Shown here piece after piece: positions 45,339 through 54,830 of a stretch of DNA of 64,000 nucleotides. Within the stretch, counting starts at the first letter, position 1; each line of letters opens with the position of its first letter. The DNA is from Promethearchaeia archaeon (GTDB lineage Archaea; Asgardarchaeota; Lokiarchaeia; Sigyniarchaeales; SOKP01): assembly GCA_029856045.1 (NCBI GenBank), contig JAHQWG010000028.1:1-64000 (forward strand), written 5' to 3'. The notes under the pieces are model-generated. The model saw only the letters and a list, made by a program, of their open reading frames with translations, was not told the DNA's origin and searched no databases. The position numbers and the translations under genes are program-made.

Positions 45339-46502
45339 TCAAAAAAAGTCAAGCAAACCTCCAATTCCTCTCATTTTAGCATCTATAGCATGTTGAGGGC
45401 ACATTTCCATACAACATAAACAAGAAATGCATTTTTTTCTCAAAAAAATTGGATATTGTTGTTCTTTAAAGTTAATCGCTTCAGCGGGGCATATTTGAGC
45501 ACAATCACCGCATTTTTTACATAACTTCTGCTTTAAAACTGGTATTTTTTTAAAGATTTTATATACTACATGACCTGTAACATAACTCGCAATATTTGTC
45601 ATAAATGCTCCAGGAACTTTAAATTTAGGAACTTGTTTTTTAGCATCATCTAAGGATAAACCTAATATTTCAATTTCATCAAAATTTCCCAGACCTAATC
45701 CCCTTTTAAACGCATTTTTTAAATGAGGTACTAATTTTAATCCATTTAATTTACCTATCTCTAATGCTACCAAATCTAGTGCCAATTCATCAGTTCCAAC
45801 AAGAATTAGGTCCCATTTAACCATTTCTCCTGCATTAGGACCCCTCGGACCCTGCATAATTGTGTGTAAATCGTAAATTGTTAATCTATTCGGTTTATTT
45901 TTCACAATCCATGAAAAATTATCTGCAAGAACCATTCCAAAATTCTGTGCGTTTTTACCTAATAGATGATATTTTGCTTTTAATCCTCCTGGAATGATAC
46001 CCCAATAATTTTTTATAGCTCCTGTCATCGTAGCCTCCACATGAGTTTTTAACCTTGGAAGATTTATTATAATATCGCAATCTTTTACCGGTTTTGATAC
46101 AAAGAATTCTTTCATAATCAAACCTTCTTCAATTATTTCTTTTTCCGGAATTTCACTTTCAAAATTTACGAATTTTAGACCTTCTCTCTCGCAAATACCA
46201 AAAAGTCCAATTTTCTTGGCAACAGAAGAAGCATTTTTTTTTAATTGACCGGGAGAATCACCAATTCTTACATTTTCCATAGAAATACCAATACTTTTTA
46301 GGTAAGCAACAACTCCTTCAACAAAAATTGGTTGAGTACACGCATCTCTGTTAGTAGAAAGCAAGTTTGGCTTTAATAAAATATATTTTGAATCTTTAAA
46401 GCTAAATGGTAAATCTTTCTCAACCAATTTGATAGCATTACTTATTGCATCAACAATGCTATCAAAATCTCTTACATTTACAATACCTATTTTTGTTGTC
46501 AT
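45339..46502 (-). CDS. DUF362 domain protein with 2x[4Fe-4S] domain
   Basis: LLKPNLL, IGDSPG, INLPRLKTH, TGAIKN..G; CKKCGDCAQICP and CISCLCCMEMCP. Confidence 0.9.
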   Translation of the reverse strand: MTTKIGIVNVRDFDSIVDAISNAIKLVEKDLPFSFKDSKYILLKPNLLSTNRDACTQPIFVEGVVAYLKSIGISMENVRIGDSPGQLKKNASSVAKKIGLFGICEREGLKFVNFESEIPEKEIIEEGLIMKEFFVSKPVKDCDIIINLPRLKTHVEATMTGAIKNYWGIIPGGLKAKYHLLGKNAQNFGMVLADNFSWIVKNKPNRLTIYDLHTIMQGPRGPNAGEMVKWDLILVGTDELALDLVALEIGKLNGLKLVPHLKNAFKRGLGLGNFDEIEILGLSLDDAKKQVPKFKVPGAFMTNIASYVTGHVVYKIFKKIPVLKQKLCKKCGDCAQICPAEAINFKEQQYPIFLRKKCISCLCCMEMCPQHAIDAKMRGIGGLLDFF

Positions 46503-46785
46503 TGTTAACAGTTAAGGTTTAAATATTAAAAAAATATCTAATGAATTCCATTTTCTAAACAAAACTTATAATTTACTATATAGATATTAATTTTATCCTA
46601 GATATAATTTAATAAGTGGATTTGAAACTTTTTCTTTATTTAAATGCATTTTTCTTTATAGAGTATAATCTTTTATTTTAATTCTTCTTCTAAATTTTAG
46701 ATCGAATTTTTTCCTTCTTATACTTTCACAATTAAATCCATATCTTTAAAAGCGGAACACCCATATATAAAGTAGTGCATGAAAA

Positions 46786-46890
46786 ATGATTAGTGGAAAA
46801 TTCTATTCTTATTTAAAATCGAAAATCAGTTTTGATTTTACTTTTCATATTTTGCACTACAACCCGCATCATCATAAACAACATAGCTAA
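46786..46890 (+). promoter_or_regulatory. putative His-rich leader peptide (hisL-like uORF) with attenuator-like hairpins
   Basis: MISGKFYSYLKSKISFDFTFHILHYNPHHHKQHS*: 6 His in the last 14 codons, about 130-160 bp upstream of hisC; complementary segments at 46772/46853, 46866/46890 and 46933/46948. Confidence 0.65.
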
Positions 46891-47046
46891 TGATGCTAAA
46901 ATGCAACATGGTTTTTGAATTCTATTCTATATTTTTATTCTTTCTGCGAATAAAATAGTTTTATAATAGAAAACATAACAAAACAAAATTAAAAATAGAG
47001 GTAATAAAAATAAAACTGAAAGGTGAATATAATCATCAATAAAAAG

Positions 47047-48210
47047 ATGAAAAAATTGAAATCAAGTCTTGAAAAAGAAATTCAAGCAAAATCTAACATT
47101 CAAAATATGATAAAATATGATCCCCCAGTAGAACAAAGACAGGGAAAAATTCGTTTAGATTTTAATGAGAATACATTTGGATGTTCTCCTAAAGTATTGG
47201 AAAGATTCAAAGAAATATTAATTGAAGATTTTTCTATATATCCAGAGAATAATACTTTTCGACTAAAATTGGCAAAATATCTTAATCTTTTTCCCTCAGA
47301 AGTGCTGCCATCAAATGGTACTGATGAAGCAATAAAAATAATTATGGATGCTTATCTCGATACTGACCAAGAATTAATTTTATTAACACCATCGTTTACA
47401 ATGTACGAGATTTATGCTTTAATTGCTGGAGCAAAAATTCAACCCATCCTTTATAAAACAGATCTTTCCTTTCCTTTGGAGGATATTTTAGCTGCAATTT
47501 CAAAAACTACAAGAATGATAATTATTGGTAATCCAAACAACCCAACTGGCACTATTGTTAAACAAACAGATATTGAGAGAATTTTAAAAAAAGCAAAAAA
47601 TGCACTTGTTATTATTGACGAAGCATATTTTCACTACTATGGAAAATCTTCAAAGGGATTAATTCGATCTTACTCGAATTTAGTTGTCCTCCAGACTTTT
47701 TCAAAAGCTTTTGGATTAGCAGGATTGAGAATAGGGTACATTATGGCAAATTCAGCAATAATTGAAACGCTTCAGAAAGTTATTTCCCCTTATAGTGTTA
47801 ACAAATTTGCACAAATTGCAGCAATAGCATCAATAGAAGATATAGATTTTCTCAATCAAAAAGTTGAAGAAATTCGGAAGAATCGTCAGTTCTTAATAAA
47901 TCAATTACAATATTTGGGTGTAGAAGTAATTCCATCAGAAGCAAATTTCATAATTGCATATTTTGGAGAAAAAATGCAAAAAGTTTACACTCTTCTGAAT
48001 AATTTTGGAATTCTTGTACGAGATCAAAGTAAAAAACCACTATTAAAAAATTATCTACGTATTACTATTGGTACAAAAGAAGAATGCATTTTGCTAGTAA
48101 AAGCAATACAAAAAATTTATTCGGAAATTAAACAAGATTCAGCAAAAAAAATACCATATTTGAAAAATTTGAGCAAAAATGGCAATCAAAATTATGGAGA
48201 GAGACAATAA
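47047..48210 (+). CDS. hisC: histidinol-phosphate aminotransferase
   Basis: RLDFNEN, NGTDEAI, NPNNPTG, IDEAY, TFSKAFGLAGLRIGY, RITIG; start uncertain (47023-47107). Confidence 0.93.
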   Translation: MKKLKSSLEKEIQAKSNIQNMIKYDPPVEQRQGKIRLDFNENTFGCSPKVLERFKEILIEDFSIYPENNTFRLKLAKYLNLFPSEVLPSNGTDEAIKIIMDAYLDTDQELILLTPSFTMYEIYALIAGAKIQPILYKTDLSFPLEDILAAISKTTRMIIIGNPNNPTGTIVKQTDIERILKKAKNALVIIDEAYFHYYGKSSKGLIRSYSNLVVLQTFSKAFGLAGLRIGYIMANSAIIETLQKVISPYSVNKFAQIAAIASIEDIDFLNQKVEEIRKNRQFLINQLQYLGVEVIPSEANFIIAYFGEKMQKVYTLLNNFGILVRDQSKKPLLKNYLRITIGTKEECILLVKAIQKIYSEIKQDSAKKIPYLKNLSKNGNQNYGERQ

Positions 48211-48211
48211 A

Positions 48212-48799
48212 ATGAGGAAAGCATCCGTAAATCGTCAAACAAAAGAAACAAAAATTGATATCAGATTAAATGTAGATGGAAAAGGTGAATATAATATTTC
48301 ATCACCAATTGCATTTCTATCTCATATGTTAGAATCATTCGCTAAACATGGACTATTTGATATTTCTCTAAAAGCAGAGGGAGATATGCAAGTAGATCAG
48401 CACCATACAGTTGAAGATTGTGGAATTGTCCTTGGAATGGTATTCAATAAAGCATTGGGCTCAAAAAAGGGGATTAATAGAGCAGGATATTTTGTTTTTC
48501 CTATGGATGATGCATTGGCTTCAGTTTCAGTTGATCTTAGTGGAAGGCCGTTCTTAATTTATAATGTTCAGTTTAAAAGACAATTTTGCGGTGATTTTGA
48601 TACAGATTTGCTTAAAGATTTCTTTCAAGGTTTTGCAGTTAATTTAAAAGCAAATATCGCAATTCAGCTTTTATATGGAAAAAATGATCACCACAAGATA
48701 GAAGCAATATTCAAGGCACTTGGGAAAGCCATGAAAATGGCCTGTTCAATTGAACCAAGATTAGGAGAAAATATTTTAAGTACAAAAGGGGGTTTATAA
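48212..48799 (+). CDS. hisB: imidazoleglycerol-phosphate dehydratase
   Basis: R.TKET.I, DQHHTVED, PMDDAL, NDHHKIEAIFKA, STKG. Confidence 0.95.
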   Translation: MRKASVNRQTKETKIDIRLNVDGKGEYNISSPIAFLSHMLESFAKHGLFDISLKAEGDMQVDQHHTVEDCGIVLGMVFNKALGSKKGINRAGYFVFPMDDALASVSVDLSGRPFLIYNVQFKRQFCGDFDTDLLKDFFQGFAVNLKANIAIQLLYGKNDHHKIEAIFKALGKAMKMACSIEPRLGENILSTKGGL

Positions 48800-49380
48800 T
48801 GATCACAGTAATTGATTATGGAGTAGGAAATATTAAAAGTGTACAAAAAGCATTTACAAAGATGGGAATAAAATCCATTATTTCAACAGAATCCCAAAAA
48901 ATTGAGGAAGCAACTAAGCTTGTTCTTCCCGGGGTAGGAAATTTTGGCGATGTTATGCAAGAACTTCGAAAACTAGGGTTTGATAAGATTCTTATTACTA
49001 AAATACAAGAAGAAACCCCATTTTTAGGAATTTGTGTTGGTATGCAAATATTATTTGAAACAAGCAGTGAAGCTGAAGGAATTAATGGATTAGGAATTTT
49101 TCGAGGACGCGTACAAAAATTTACACAAGGAAAGATACCTCATATTGGTTGGAATGAAATTATTCCAAGAAAATCAAGAGTTCTTAAAAAGGGATATGTA
49201 TATTTTGCTAACTCATTTTATGTTGTACCAAAAGATGATTCAATCATTTCCGCAGAAACAGATTATTTTGTACGATTTCCCAGTGCAATTGAAAAGGATA
49301 AAATTACAGCATTTCAATTTCATCCAGAAAAAAGTGGAATATTTGGTCTAAATATATTAAAGAGGTGGGCAAAATGTTAG
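48799..49380 (+). CDS. hisH: imidazole glycerol phosphate synthase glutaminase subunit
   Basis: IDYGVGN, LPGVG, GICVGMQ, PHIGWN, QFHPEKS. Confidence 0.95.
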   Translation: MITVIDYGVGNIKSVQKAFTKMGIKSIISTESQKIEEATKLVLPGVGNFGDVMQELRKLGFDKILITKIQEETPFLGICVGMQILFETSSEAEGINGLGIFRGRVQKFTQGKIPHIGWNEIIPRKSRVLKKGYVYFANSFYVVPKDDSIISAETDYFVRFPSAIEKDKITAFQFHPEKSGIFGLNILKRWAKC

Positions 49381-50138
49381 CAAAACGGATAATTCCTTGT
49401 TTGGATATCAATAAAGAACGCGTAGTAAAAGGAATAAATTTCAAAAATCTAAAAGATATTGGAAATCCACTTGAACTAGCAAGATATTATTCGAACTCTG
49501 GAGCAGATGAGATAAGTTTTCTAGATATTACAGCATCTTATGAAAATCGTAAAATAATTCTTGAATTCGTAAAATCAGTAGCAAATGAAGTTTTTATTCC
49601 ATTATCTGTTGGAGGTGGAATTCGAACAATAGAAGAAATTCAATCTATTTTAGCTGCTGGTGCAGAAAAAGTAAGTATTGGTACCAGCGCCGTTCAAAAT
49701 CCACAGTTAATTGCAAAGGCTGCAAATAAGTTTGGAAAACAAGCAATTGTTCTTTCATTAGACGTTCAGCGTTCTTCTTCAATGAAAAATGGCTGGGAAA
49801 TTTATATCAACGGTGGAAGAAAACCAACTGGGTTAGATGCATTAGAATTTGCGCAAAAAATAGAAAACCTAGGATCAGGTGAAATTTTATTAAATTCAAT
49901 TGATCGTGATGGGACAAAACTAGGCTATGATCTTGAATTAATTAAATTATTTAATGAAAATTTGAAGATTCCAATTATTGCATCTGGTGGAGCAGGTACT
50001 TTAGAGAACATTCGAGATGCTTTTACAATTGGAGGTGCAGATGCAGCTCTTGTAGCCTCACTTTTTCATTATAAAAATTATAAGATTCAAGAAGTTAAAA
50101 AATATTTGCGAAAGCACAAAGTGGAGGTACGTCTTTAA
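49374..50138 (+). CDS. hisF: imidazole glycerol phosphate synthase cyclase subunit
   Basis: [38 protein letters not shown]. Confidence 0.96.
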
Positions 50139-51361
50139 TGATTATTCCAAGCATTGATTTGATGAATAATAAGGCAGTTCAACTTCAACAAGGGAAAACA
50201 AAAATATTAGAAAGAGATGATGTTCTTGAATTGGCAAAAGAATTTCAAAAATATGGAGAAATTGCGGTTATTGATCTTGATGCAGCCCTCAATCAAGGTG
50301 ATAATATTGAACTCATTAAAAAAATTTTAAAAGTTGCGGAGTGTCGTGTTGGAGGTGGAATTCGCACACTTAAAAAGGCAAATCAAATTTTACAATGGGG
50401 TGCAAAAAAAATTTTTATTGGAACTAAAGCATACCCCACATTTCTAAAGGAATTACCTAAAGATCGAATAATTGTTGCAATTGATACGAGGAATAATGTT
50501 GTTGTAAATGAAGGTTGGACAAAACCCACACAAAAGACACCTAAAATGATGATTAAAGAATTAGAAAAATATTGCTCTGAATTTTTATTTACAAATATAA
50601 ATATGGAAGGATTGATGAAAGGGATTGATTTCGATTTAGTTAGAGAATTAAGACAATTAACTAAAAATGAATTTACCGTTGCAGGGGGAATTACAAATCT
50701 TGATGAAATCAGATTTTTAGAGAAATTAAATTGTAATTCACAAATAGGAATGGCAATATACACAGGAAGATTAAATCTTATGGATGCTTTCATCGCAGTT
50801 CTTGATTTTAAAAAAAATAACGGATTAATTCCAACAATTGTGCAAGAGAAAAACGGACAAGTACTAATGCTTGCATATTCCTCAAAGGAATCTTTAAAAC
50901 AAACATTTCAATCAAGAAAAGCAACATATTATAGTCGAACTCGAGAAAAAATTTGGATAAAAGGTGAAACATCAAATAATCATCAAGAATTAATCTATGC
51001 AAGATATGATTGCGATAAAGATACAATACTTTTCAAGGTTAAACAACATAATTTTGCTTGCCATCTGGGACGATATTCTTGTTTTGAACAAAAAAACTTT
51101 ACATTAAATGAGTTATTTGATGTTATCAATTCAAGGTTAAAGGTATATTCAAAAGATTCATATACATCACAAATATCACAAGATGAAGAGAAAATCAAAG
51201 CAAAAATCTTGGAAGAGACAAAGGAAATTTTAAATTATACATCGGTAGACAATCTCATTTGGGAAATCGCTGATTTAACCTACTTCATTCTGGTTTTAAT
51301 GGCAAAGAAAGGGATTTCTCTTAATGATATTAAAAATGAACTATGGAGACGACGAAAATGA
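50138..51361 (+). CDS. hisAIE: trifunctional HisA-HisI-HisE fusion
   Basis: HisA: IIPSIDL, IDLDAA, VGGGIR, AGGI; HisI: GLIPTIVQ, YSRTR..W.KGETS, DCDKD, ACHLG..SCF; HisE: SYT, KILEE, EIADL.Y. Confidence 0.9.
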   Translation: MIIPSIDLMNNKAVQLQQGKTKILERDDVLELAKEFQKYGEIAVIDLDAALNQGDNIELIKKILKVAECRVGGGIRTLKKANQILQWGAKKIFIGTKAYPTFLKELPKDRIIVAIDTRNNVVVNEGWTKPTQKTPKMMIKELEKYCSEFLFTNINMEGLMKGIDFDLVRELRQLTKNEFTVAGGITNLDEIRFLEKLNCNSQIGMAIYTGRLNLMDAFIAVLDFKKNNGLIPTIVQEKNGQVLMLAYSSKESLKQTFQSRKATYYSRTREKIWIKGETSNNHQELIYARYDCDKDTILFKVKQHNFACHLGRYSCFEQKNFTLNELFDVINSRLKVYSKDSYTSQISQDEEKIKAKILEETKEILNYTSVDNLIWEIADLTYFILVLMAKKGISLNDIKNELWRRRK

Positions 51362-52395
51362 CTGGTATTCAAATTCAGATGGGAATTCCATCTAAGGGAA
51401 GGATGGGACAGGAAACTGAAAATTTTTTGAATAAATGTGGATTGACAGTAATTCGAAGAAAACGAGAATATCTAGGAAGTATTTTGACAATTCCGGAGAT
51501 TCAACTAATTTTTCAAAGACAAAAGGACATTCTTCGTGGAGTAGAAAATGAGTCTTTAAGTTTTGGAATTATTGGATATGATTTATTAAAAGAATATGCT
51601 AGTTTAACTGGAAATGAAGTTGTAATTCTCCATGACGGACTTGGATTTGGAAAATGTACATTAGAGCTTGCAATTCCTGAAGGATGGAAAGAAGATTCTC
51701 TTGTACAAATTCTTAAGAATAAAAAGAAAATTCGTATTGCAACAAAATACACTCGGCTTGCAAGCCAATTTAAAGAAGTATGCAAGAACCAATTTGAAAT
51801 TATTAATGGAAATGGTTCTATTGAAGTATTCCCAACATTAGGATATTCTGATGCAATAATTGATTTAGTTTCAACTGGGCAAACAATTAAAGATAATCGA
51901 TTGAAACGCATAAGTGGAGGAATAATTCTCAAATCTCAAGCAATCTTCATTGGAAATCGAAAAATGCTTAAAAATCCCAAAATTTTAGCAGTCGCTAAAG
52001 AAATACTTGAATATTTTGAAGCAACAATACGTGCTAATGAATATCTTCAAATTTTTGCAAATATGAAAGAATCTGATCCAAAAAAGATAGCTCAAGCACT
52101 TTTTTCAATTCCTGAATTAGTAGGATTACAAGGACCAACAATTTCACCAGTTTACAAAAAAGATGGGACACTATGGAATGCAATTCACATTATTGTCAAA
52201 AAGAATCAGCTTCAAGAAGCTATTCAATCGCTCAGAAAAATTGGAGGTAGTGGAGTAATTGTTTCACCAGCCTTGTATATTTTTGAAGAAGAACCACCGC
52301 AATACCTTAATCTATTACGTGAAATGCAAAATGAATTAAAAAATAATGGAAAAGGATGTGAGGAAAATGGAGATCCTAACCTTAAAATATTATAA
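51358..52395 (+). CDS. hisG: ATP phosphoribosyltransferase, long form
   Basis: IPSKGRM, GIIGYD, RIATKY, GSIE..P.LG..DAIIDLVSTGQT..DNRL, regulatory domain GLQGPTISPVY. Confidence 0.94.
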   Translation: MTGIQIQMGIPSKGRMGQETENFLNKCGLTVIRRKREYLGSILTIPEIQLIFQRQKDILRGVENESLSFGIIGYDLLKEYASLTGNEVVILHDGLGFGKCTLELAIPEGWKEDSLVQILKNKKKIRIATKYTRLASQFKEVCKNQFEIINGNGSIEVFPTLGYSDAIIDLVSTGQTIKDNRLKRISGGIILKSQAIFIGNRKMLKNPKILAVAKEILEYFEATIRANEYLQIFANMKESDPKKIAQALFSIPELVGLQGPTISPVYKKDGTLWNAIHIIVKKNQLQEAIQSLRKIGGSGVIVSPALYIFEEEPPQYLNLLREMQNELKNNGKGCEENGDPNLKIL

Positions 52396-53617
52396 ACATA
52401 AGCATTTTGATTATGCAGAAATGTTTGAATTAAAAAAAGTTAGAAAAATTTTAAAATCAGTAAAAAGAAATGGAGATTCCGCAATCAAGCACTATACAAA
52501 ACAATTTGATAAAATTAATTTAGAGAAAATTCAAATTCCAGAAGAAAAAATTACAGAAATTTACAAATCTGCTGATCCAAAATTAATTGAACTTCTACAA
52601 TATGCTACAAATCGAATACAACTTTTTGCATCAAAACAACTAGAATCTTTCAAAAATCTTGAAATAAAGATTGAAGATTCAATCATTGGACATAAAATTG
52701 TGCCTATACAAAAAGTAGGATGCTATGTTCCCGGAGGACGTTTTCCTCTTATTTCTACTGCATTGATGACAGTCATTCCTGCAAAAGTAGCTGGAGTGAA
52801 GGAAATATTTGTATGTTCCCCAAAAATTCATTCAATAACAATACTTGCAGCAAAAATTGCTGGTGCGGATCGAATATTCAATATGGGAGGAGTACAGGCA
52901 ATAGCTGCTTTTGCATTCGGAACTGAATCTGTACCAAAAGTCGATAAAATTGTTGGACCTGGTAATAAATATGTTACAGCTGCAAAAAAAGAAGTATACG
53001 GAACAGTGGGAATTGATTTTCTTGCAGGACCTAGTGAAATATTAATTATTGCAGACGAAACGGCTATACCAGAATTTATTGCTGCAGATCTTCTTGCACA
53101 AGCAGAACATGATCCAAATTCTATTCCGGAACTAATTACAACATCTCCTCAACTTGCAGCAAAAGTCAATCAGCAACTAAAATTTCAACTTTCTAATTTA
53201 ACTACAAAAAAAACTGCAGAAAGTGCATTAAAGAATGGAAAAATAATTCTTACAGATTCTATACTAGAAACTGTAAAAATTTCAAATATTATCGCTCCAG
53301 AACATTTAGAAATTCATATTTCCAATCCAGATCTAATAATTGATAAATTATATAATTATGGTTCCTTATTCATTGGGAATTATTCCGCGGAAACATTTGG
53401 AGACTATTGTAGCGGAACTAACCATATACTTCCTACAAATGGGGCAGCACGTTACACAGGAGGATTATCTGTAAAAAATTTCATTAAAATCCAAACTTAT
53501 CAAAAAATTGGCAAGAAAGATGCAAAAAAAATAAGTCAAATTACAGAAAATCTTGCAGAAATAGAAGGATTATATGCACATAAAAATGCATCAATAATTC
53601 GTTTTAAATCTTTGTGA
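52367..53617 (+). CDS. hisD: histidinol dehydrogenase
   Basis: [53 protein letters not shown]. Confidence 0.95.
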
Positions 53618-53622
53618 AGATT

Positions 53623-54070
53623 TTGGAAGATTTATTATAATATCGCAATCTTTTACAAGTTTTGAAACAAAAAAATCTTTCATAATTAAACCGTCTTCAA
53701 TTATTTCTTTTTCTGGAATTTCTTTTTCAATATGTACGAATTTTATACCTTCTCTATCTCAGATATCAAGAAGTCCTATTTTATTAGCAACAGAAATAAC
53801 ATTTTTTTTTAATTGACCGGGAGAATCACCAATTCTTACAATTTCCATGGACACACCGATGCTTTTTAAATAATTAATAACACCCTCTACAAAAATTGGT
53901 TGAGTACACGCATCTCTGTCAGTAGAAAGCAAGTTTGGCTTTAATAAGATATATTTTGATTCTTTAAAATTAAATAGCAAATCCTTATCAATCAATTAAA
54001 TGGCACTATTAATTGCATCAATAATGCTATCAAAATTTCTTACATTTACAATACTTATTTTAGTTGTCAT
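53623..54070 (-). pseudogene. truncated, nonsense-disrupted duplicate of the DUF362 gene (5' half only)
   Basis: MTTKISIVNVRNFDSIIDAINSAI*LIDKDLL...GLLDI*DREGIKF...CDIIINLP; parallels 46055-46502; two in-frame stops; ends at the hisD stop. Confidence 0.85.
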
Positions 54071-54122
54071 TGTAAACAGTTAAGGTTTAATTATTGTAAA
54101 AATAATTTTCAAATTCTATTTT

Positions 54123-54830
54123 CTAATCAAAACTATTGAAATTTGCAAATTTAACTCCCTTCCCTTTCATATTAGCCAAAGTTTGGGAGATGTTTCCTTC
54201 TGGTAAATCTATTCCTTTAGTTAAATCAACAATTAAAAATACTTCAAATCCAAAATCAATTCCATCCACTGCTGTGAAATAACAACAATAATCTAATGCG
54301 AGACCACAAATGAAAATTCTTTTAATTTTTAATGATTTCAACAATCCAGAAAGACCAGTTTCGGTTTTTTTATCATTTTCAAGAAAACCAGAGTAGCTAT
54401 CAATTTCTGGATTCATTCCTTTTCGAATAACTGCTCTGGTATGCAATATTTTTAAAGAATTATGAAAATCTGCTCCATGTGTTCCTTGAACGCAGTGATC
54501 AGGCCACAAAACTGGACCAATTGTTTCAGTTTGATATTCATCTCCTGGATTTTTTCCGGGGTGATTACTGGCAAAGGATTTATGAGATTTAGGGTGCCAA
54601 TCTTGCGTCAAAATTATGGAGGCCTCATTTATATAAAATTTTTTGACTATTTGATTAACTCCAGTAATAATTTGATCACCTTCTTCTACGGGTAAGGCAC
54701 CACTTGGCATGAAATCGTTCTGCATATCAACAATAATTAAAGCGTCCTCCTTGGAAATTGTGATATCTTTGACATATTTGATCTCATCAAGATTCAATTT
54801 AATCACTTCTATGAAACTTATAATATTCAA
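54123..54830 (-). CDS. pncA: nicotinamidase/pyrazinamidase
   Basis: IVDMQNDF..GALPV, TQDWHP, WPDHCVQGT.GA, KG...DSYSGF, GLALDYC; true start may be TTG at 54797. Confidence 0.92.
   Translation of the reverse strand: MNIISFIEVIKLNLDEIKYVKDITISKEDALIIVDMQNDFMPSGALPVEEGDQIITGVNQIVKKFYINEASIILTQDWHPKSHKSFASNHPGKNPGDEYQTETIGPVLWPDHCVQGTHGADFHNSLKILHTRAVIRKGMNPEIDSYSGFLENDKKTETGLSGLLKSLKIKRIFICGLALDYCCYFTAVDGIDFGFEVFLIVDLTKGIDLPEGNISQTLANMKGKGVKFANFNSFD

What the first reader, a model, noticed from the sequence alone, without database searches (positions are those of the whole stretch)
46770..46975. His-rich leader peptide and alternative hairpins upstream of an archaeal his operon
Seen: a 34-codon uORF (46786-46890, below the ORF-track cutoff) ending HILHYNPHHHKQHS*. 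gcatcat (46866-72, on the His codons) can pair with atgatgc (46890-96); gtagtgca (46772-79) with tgcactac (46853-60); and ttttattc (46933-40) with gaataaaa (46948-55), followed by a T-run. Established: bacterial hisL attenuation senses His-tRNA by ribosome stalling on His codons; this is not a well-documented archaeal mechanism. Inference: translation-coupled amino-acid sensing in an Asgard archaeon, either functional or carried in with the operon.
Basis: partly seen in the sequence, partly recalled or inferred. Interest (0 to 1): 0.75.

Follow-up and report, generated by a model that had tools for sequence, protein, structure and literature searches.

The report
Histidine-sensing leader peptide, Asgard archaeon
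A tiny upstream gene packed with histidine codons precedes this Asgard archaeon's histidine operon and is kept in relatives, including the cultured Ca.

Summary
The uORF is real and conserved. It has 34 codons, six His in the last 14, and precedes the genome's only his operon (hisC-B-H-F-A/IE-G-D), which is xenologous and allied to DPANN operons. Four further Lokiarchaeia-type lineages, including Ca. Lokiarchaeum ossiferum, keep a 28-35-codon ORF with 7 His. His codons are in frame 34 times against 4, a TATA-like box lies 39-40 nt before the start in all five lineages, and a near-invariant motif follows the stop. In an unbiased scan of 4,856 intergenic uORFs, four of the top five codon enrichments match the next gene (Trp-trpB2, Cys-cysteine synthase, His-hisC, Leu-leuS). 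The proposed terminator hairpin is AU-only, deleted in the sister genome and followed by just U4; no covariation was found. Best reading: ribosome stalling senses His-tRNA and gates premature, probably aCPSF1/U-tract, termination. That output is inferred, not shown. A second sensor, a prfB-like +1 frameshift cassette at the hisC start, is degenerate here but intact in the sister lineage, whose uORF is frameshifted. The scan noted similar archaeal leaders and this cassette before on other DNA.

The parts
46745..46752 (+). TATA-like box, predicted promoter; start site about 46772-46779 (inferred)
   Evidence: TTRAWA box at -39/-40 from the uORF start codon in all five lineages; coordinates
46764..46771 (+). 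second TATA-like box, only in the G000/G001/L166 cluster; would start transcription inside the uORF (possible bypass promoter)
   Evidence: inference
46772..46779 (+). weak SD-like segment; pairs with 46853-46860 in the predicted fold
   Evidence: pair probability ~1; codon-shuffle control p 0.11 here, 0.03-0.31 in relatives
46779..46793 (+). 4-codon mini-ORF overlapping the uORF start, the uORF lying in its +1 frame; may be a relic of the DPANN arrangement or a reinitiation route
   Evidence: sequence; DPANN comparison; inference
46786..46890 (+). His-rich leader ORF, 34 codons
46846..46884 (+). His codon cluster (5 CAT, 1 CAC): predicted stall zone
46890..46896 (+). post-stop arm: pairs with His codons 46866-72 on free RNA, or forms an alternative hairpin 46886-46912 when the His codons are covered
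   Evidence: constrained folding, (weak: -6.2 kcal/mol, z -1.0)
46895..46908 (+). near-invariant motif GCTRMAATGCAACA, 4-10 nt after the stop in all five lineages; role unknown
   Evidence: its other matches in 400 Asgard genomes lie inside coding regions
46912..46962 (+).
46998..47042 (+). second His element: SD 46998-47002 and mini-ORF 47010-47042 with cassette RGT GRN NNN NTT CAY; hisC lies in its +1 frame. Degenerate here: start ATA, P-site codon AAT
47023..48210 (+). hisC (GTG 47023 inside the cassette, or ATG 47047, 4 nt after the mini-ORF stop)
   Evidence: TIGR01141 above cut-off
48179..53617 (+). hisB, hisH, hisF, hisA-hisIE fusion, hisG, hisD
   Evidence: single copy in the genome
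46055..46566 (.). left copy of a 512-bp, 86% identical direct repeat (5' half of the DUF362 gene) flanking leader plus operon; right copy 53623-54134

Best explanation
The ORF is a histidine-sensing leader peptide. Transcription starts just upstream of it. A ribosome translating it slows on the clustered His codons when charged tRNA-His is scarce, and its position decides whether the His codons pair with the segment after the stop or leave that segment and its invariant motif free. When histidine is plentiful, the ribosome finishes and leaves, and transcription ends in the U-rich untranslated spacer, most likely through aCPSF1/FttA rather than a bacterial hairpin terminator; starvation gives read-through into hisC. 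Shown: conservation of ORF, frame, His content, promoter spacing and motif. Inferred: translation, stalling, the fold switch and the termination output.
For: Leader kept in five lineages at 47-51% HisC identity, length 28-35 codons, 6-7 His, CAT and CAC both used, three different stop codons, His codons in frame 34 vs 4 out of frame. TATA-like box at -39/-40 in all five and an SD-like segment 6-8 nt before the start. Four of the top five uORF codon enrichments in this genome are cognate to the next gene. An unrelated his operon type in other Lokiarchaeia also has a His-run ORF in 15 of 24 loci examined, and DPANN relatives of this operon have one in the same position. HisC, the first product, holds 1 His in 395 residues. 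aCPSF1 is encoded (TIGR03675 above cut-off); it prefers U-rich RNA (PMC11616081, PMC8716108 abstract) and U4+ tracts follow the motif in every leader.
Against: No expression, start-site, 3'-end or ribosome data. Folds are weak and show no covariation. Constrained folding does not show the U-tracts being masked in the stalled state, and a stalled ribosome would by itself uncouple the polymerase and favour FttA, the wrong sign, so an extra element is needed. U-tracts are common in a 29% GC genome. The sister lineage G001 carries a real +1 insertion that takes the His run out of frame. A second TATA box could start transcription inside the ORF. Four of the five lineages form one clade on the HisB tree, so they are not independent.
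Confidence: 0.55

Rival explanations
1. Same sensor, but the output is post-transcriptional: the stalled ribosome changes mRNA stability (aCPSF1 or RNase cleavage of the leader) or access to the next ribosome-binding site, working in series with the frameshift cassette.
For: No conserved terminator. In DPANN relatives the His-run ORF is itself reached by a +1 shift and is followed by a tRNA-His gene whose processing would cut the transcript. The cysteine leader of this genome has an anti-SD-like segment.
Against: The stop lies about 108 nt before the next SD, too far for direct coupling (PMC10666635 abstract: overlaps or very short distances needed); I saw no conserved anti-SD in the five leaders.
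Confidence: 0.2
2. Vestigial in this genome: the leader came with the operon and no longer regulates; the second TATA box drives constitutive expression.
For: Operon is xenologous; the neighbouring cassette is doubly mutated here; weak SD; G001 tolerates a frameshift in the ORF.
Against: ORF frame, His run and motif are intact in G000, its strain relatives and L166 while flanks drift. Loss is reciprocal: G000, L166 and G035 keep the ORF and damage or lose the cassette, G001 the reverse, four leaders keep both, none loses both. The host uses cognate-codon uORFs at trpB2, cysteine synthase and leuS.
Confidence: 0.12
3. Classical bacterial attenuator, with 46933-46955 plus the T-run as intrinsic terminator.
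For: Hairpin forms with pair probability 0.9-1.0 in short windows; AU-rich hairpins followed by U6-U8 exist in three relatives at a similar distance.
Against: AU-only stem, deleted in G001, only U4 after it; no antiterminator overlapping it in any constrained fold; downstream folds not above shuffles in most leaders (z -2.0 to +0.8); no Rfam His_leader match.
Confidence: 0.08
4. The CAT repeats are kept as RNA structure or a protein-binding site, not as codons, or arise by chance.
For: CAT pairs with ATG repeats after the stop; the invariant motif is sequence-conserved.
Against: His blocks separated by non-His codons stay in one frame (34 vs 4), CAC substitutes for CAT, and G035 keeps five His in a row while losing the ATGATG arm.
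Confidence: 0.05

Closest known systems
Enterobacterial his operon attenuator (hisL; Rfam RF00514 His_leader) and the candidate His attenuators of Firmicutes (PMC9413887)
   Same: Short leader ORF with tandem His codons ahead of a his operon; His codons pair with the sequence after the stop; operon and leader can move together by lateral transfer.
   Different: No Rfam match; 28-35 codons; archaeal TATA promoter; no conserved GC-rich terminator or antiterminator; followed by a second, frameshift-type His element.
Rho-dependent leader-peptide attenuation, E. coli tnaC type (own knowledge), with aCPSF1/FttA as the archaeal counterpart (PMC11616081, PMC8116511)
   Same: Ribosome position on a leader would gate a termination factor acting on untranslated RNA; FttA-ribosome exclusion is proposed in both papers.
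   Different: TnaC senses free Trp through the nascent peptide at the stop; here the peptide is not conserved, only the cognate codons. Conditional FttA termination in a leader is hypothetical.
prfB (RF2) +1 programmed frameshift and Ty1 hungry-codon +1 sites (PMC5009743)
   Same: For the cassette at 46998-47042: short zero-frame ORF, internal SD-like element, one spacer codon, NUU P-site codon, slow A-site codon, gene in the +1 frame.
   Different: A-site codon is His rather than UGA; a GTG in the +1 frame allows a plain overlapping-start reading; degenerate in this genome; the archaeal recoding review lists no such case (PMC8211752).
Archaeal amino-acid regulation by DNA-binding factors TrpY and Tar (PMC6737238)
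   Same: Control of amino-acid biosynthesis operons in archaea.
   Different: These act at the promoter; that paper does not mention attenuation or leaders.

Membership tests
Leader-peptide transcription attenuator (hisL type) | Short upstream ORF enriched in cognate codons | tested here: met
Leader-peptide transcription attenuator (hisL type) | ORF frame and cognate codons conserved in relatives | tested here: met
   five lineages, 34 vs 4 in frame; exception G001
Leader-peptide transcription attenuator (hisL type) | Leader lies inside the transcript (promoter upstream) | tested here: inconclusive
   TATA-like box at -39/-40 in all five, but a second box at -22 here; no start-site data
Leader-peptide transcription attenuator (hisL type) | Mutually exclusive folds involving the cognate codons | tested here: inconclusive
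   predicted in 7 of 8 leaders, weak energies, no covariation
Leader-peptide transcription attenuator (hisL type) | Conserved intrinsic terminator (GC-rich stem plus U-tract) with overlapping antiterminator | tested here: not met
Rfam His_leader RF00514 | Covariance-model match | tested here: not met
Leader-peptide transcription attenuator (hisL type) | Translation of the ORF and histidine-dependent read-through | not testable with these tools
aCPSF1/FttA-dependent conditional terminator | Factor encoded and U-rich untranslated RNA after the ORF | tested here: met
   weak criterion in a 29% GC genome
prfB-like +1 frameshift cassette | SD-led zero-frame ORF, internal SD, NUU codon, slow codon, gene in open +1 frame | tested here: met
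   18 gene-proximal matches in relatives, all +1 and open
prfB-like +1 frameshift cassette | Intact start codon and slippery codon in this genome | tested here: not met
   ATA and AAT here and in strain relatives; ATG and ATT in G001
T-box or other Rfam riboswitch | Covariance-model match | tested here: not met

The most novel reading that the evidence does not exclude
Asgard and DPANN archaea use the ribosome as an amino-acid gauge through two interchangeable devices in one leader: a cognate-codon leader peptide that gates factor-dependent (aCPSF1, the homolog of eukaryotic CPSF73/INTS11) premature termination, and a hungry-codon +1 frameshift. The Lokiarchaeia leader peptide descends from the +1-frame ORF of a DPANN frameshift cassette, and lineages keep either device.
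Probability: 0.3. Interest if true: 0.92.

Novelty: new variant of a known kind. Interest (0 to 1): 0.72.

Why it matters
Leader-peptide sensing of amino acids is established in bacteria; my literature searches returned no archaeal case, though the library lacks most subscription papers, and from memory (not retrievable) short Trp-containing leader ORFs were once proposed for Methanothermobacter and Thermococcus trp operons. If functional, it is a natural test of whether archaeal transcription-translation coupling is used for regulation and whether FttA and the ribosome exclude each other, a hypothesis stated as untested in PMC11616081. The leader is intact, with both devices, in Ca. Lokiarchaeum ossiferum, a cultured Asgard archaeon, so RNA ends and ribosome footprints can be read, and it can be moved into Thermococcus or Haloferax reporters.

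Tried and rejected
Rfam: nothing credible. The GTDB contig scan with HisA/IE returned only the sister genome. The post-stop motif as a widespread Asgard element: 21 further genomes matched, all inside coding regions, so rejected. The ATG within that motif as a second ORF: lengths 5-31 codons and frame vary, rejected. K-turn/box C-D reading of the motif: CUGA not kept in G000 or L. ossiferum, rejected by eye. G001 insertion as assembly error: present in three independent assemblies, rejected; a +1 slip at UUU-CAU could restore its His frame (inference only). Vertically inherited hisC of same-genus genomes has no such leader. Two older papers were not held. No tRNA-His was found in this assembly, so complementarity of the motif to it was not tested.

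Full report
Observation. Downstream lies hisC-B-H-F-(A+IE fusion)-G-D, the only his set in the genome. The host is a Lokiarchaeia-type Asgard archaeon: the same-genus genome is a Promethearchaeota MAG, and Ca. Lokiarchaeum ossiferum is in the same order.

More than chance. Three of 31,802 short ATG ORFs in the genome reach 6 His in 14 codons. I then ranked all 4,856 intergenic uORFs by enrichment of any amino acid in their last 15 codons, blind to the next gene. The top five were Trp before trpB2, Cys before a cysteine synthase-family gene, Ser before an unrelated short gene, His before hisC and Leu before leuS. Four cognate matches in five indicate that this genome uses cognate-codon uORFs generally. 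The His hit (7.6e-8) is four orders beyond the next His candidate.

Origin of the operon. Only 10 of 400 Asgard genomes hold the HisA/IE fusion; named best matches include Woesearchaeota and Nanoarchaeota at 63-66%. On a HisB tree the window groups (97/97) with DPANN, another Asgard family and L. ossiferum, apart from the common Lokiarchaeia hisB clade that includes a same-genus genome. The operon is therefore xenologous; I did not test direction of transfer.

Conservation of the leader. Five lineages carry it: G000/G001/L166; L. ossiferum (L032, L168); L165/L169; L164; G035. ORFs are 28-35 codons with 6-7 His, start with ATG, GTG or TTG, and end in all three stop codons. His triplets fall in frame 34 times and out of frame 4 times, in blocks separated by other codons, with CAT/CAC exchange. 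The rest of the peptide is not conserved, as expected if codons and not the product matter. A near-invariant motif (46895-46908) follows the stop. Caveats: four lineages form one clade; this cluster has a second TATA box at 46764; G001 has a real one-base insertion that truncates the ORF before the His run.

RNA structure. On free RNA the His codons pair with the post-stop segment in 7 of 8 leaders; covering them frees that segment, which here folds into 46886-46912. The start region pairs with the His region in the predicted folds of four lineages with different sequences, but codon-shuffle controls give p 0.03-0.31. Energies are weak and the alignment fold shows no covariation. The proposed terminator fails: AU-only, deleted in G001, followed by U4, and never overlapped by an antiterminator. 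An outer stem 46920-26/46965-71 survives in G001, and relatives have unrelated AU-rich hairpins with U6-U8 tails, mostly not above shuffles.

A second His element. At the hisC start is an SD (46998-47002) and a mini-ORF (47010-47042) with the pattern RGT GRN NNN NTT CAY. Eighteen relatives have it next to the first his gene, whether hisG or hisC, always with the gene in the open +1 frame. The geometry matches the RF2 site (internal SD, NUU codon, slow A-site codon; PMC5009743; the one-codon spacing is from my own knowledge). A GTG in the +1 frame allows a simpler overlapping-start reading, though it has no SD of its own. Here the cassette has ATA for ATG and AAT for ATT, so hisC may be reached by reinitiation at ATG 47047, 4 nt after the mini-ORF stop (inference; PMC6728339). 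Loss is reciprocal across lineages and none loses both elements, which suggests two redundant sensors (small sample).

Ancestry. In six DPANN-type loci a TATA box sits 30-31 nt before a 9-14-codon ORF holding the same kind of cassette, whose +1 frame runs 32-33 codons to a His-rich end; then come a conserved TGCA-containing U-rich motif, a tRNA-His gene (called in two loci, similar sequence in the rest), a second cassette and hisG. Position, length and the HHC-stop ending shared with three Lokiarchaeia lineages suggest that the leader travelled with the operon (inference). An unrelated operon type (hisI-G-D-C-B-H-A-F) in other Lokiarchaeia has its own His-run ORF with a different, stronger hairpin in 15 of 24 loci.

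Mechanism. Sensing by ribosome stalling on His codons is likely (about 0.83 over the first three explanations). The output is open. I favour premature termination by aCPSF1/FttA, which is encoded, prefers U-rich RNA and is proposed to compete with the ribosome (PMC11616081, PMC8116511), because the stop is too far from the next SD for direct coupling and no intrinsic terminator is conserved. The weak point is sign: stalling alone would expose RNA, so the stalled ribosome or the freed motif must block the factor, and my folds do not show how.

Verdict. It works like a hisL attenuator in its input but is not a member of that family (no terminator, no Rfam match). New variant of a known kind; interest 0.72. 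The scan has noted similar leaders on other archaeal DNA; those notes are leads, not support.

Noticed in passing
window 46055-46566 and 53623-54134: 512-bp, 86% identical direct repeat of the DUF362 5' half flanks leader plus operon; in G001 the order is DUF362, nicotinamidase gene, his operon, so the block was rearranged here.
   Followed up: partly
L204:150-560, L205:150-500, L206 (G000 C27, C49): Trp-, Cys- and Leu-rich uORFs before trpB2, cysteine synthase and a bacterial-type leuS; in the Trp and Cys leaders the cognate codons pair with the segment after the stop.
   Followed up: partly
L052, L055, L056, L059, L198, L200 (about 350 nt before hisG): DPANN-type his leader: two frameshift-type cassettes, a His-run ORF in the +1 frame of the first, and a tRNA-His gene (apparently with introns in some) between them.
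   Followed up: partly
L043, L046, L047 (before hisG): Another Asgard family has two SD-led mini-ORFs with the cassette and no His-run ORF.
   Followed up: partly
L207:3371-3523, L208:2964-3197, L209-L234: Second Lokiarchaeia his operon type with a His-run ORF, a 14-bp hairpin after the stop and a hairpin next to the SD of hisI; nine loci showed none within the 1.5 kb held.
   Followed up: partly
L027:4431-4536 (G001): One-base insertion puts the His run in the +1 frame behind a UUU-CAU site, mimicking the DPANN arrangement; could be a break or a conversion to frameshift gating.
   Followed up: partly
L106, L107, L119, L123: Distant metagenomic his operons (probably bacterial) with ordinary His-run leader peptides.
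   Followed up: no
G000 C36:287468-288232 upstream; C51:163416-164492 upstream: Weaker uORF hits: three Trp before a hydrolase-like gene, and four Ala before a gene resembling a branched-chain aminotransferase (identity by eye only).
   Followed up: no
G002, G004 (same genus, 90-100% complete): No hisB or hisG found with these queries: likely histidine auxotrophs, so the operon here may be a regain.
   Followed up: no
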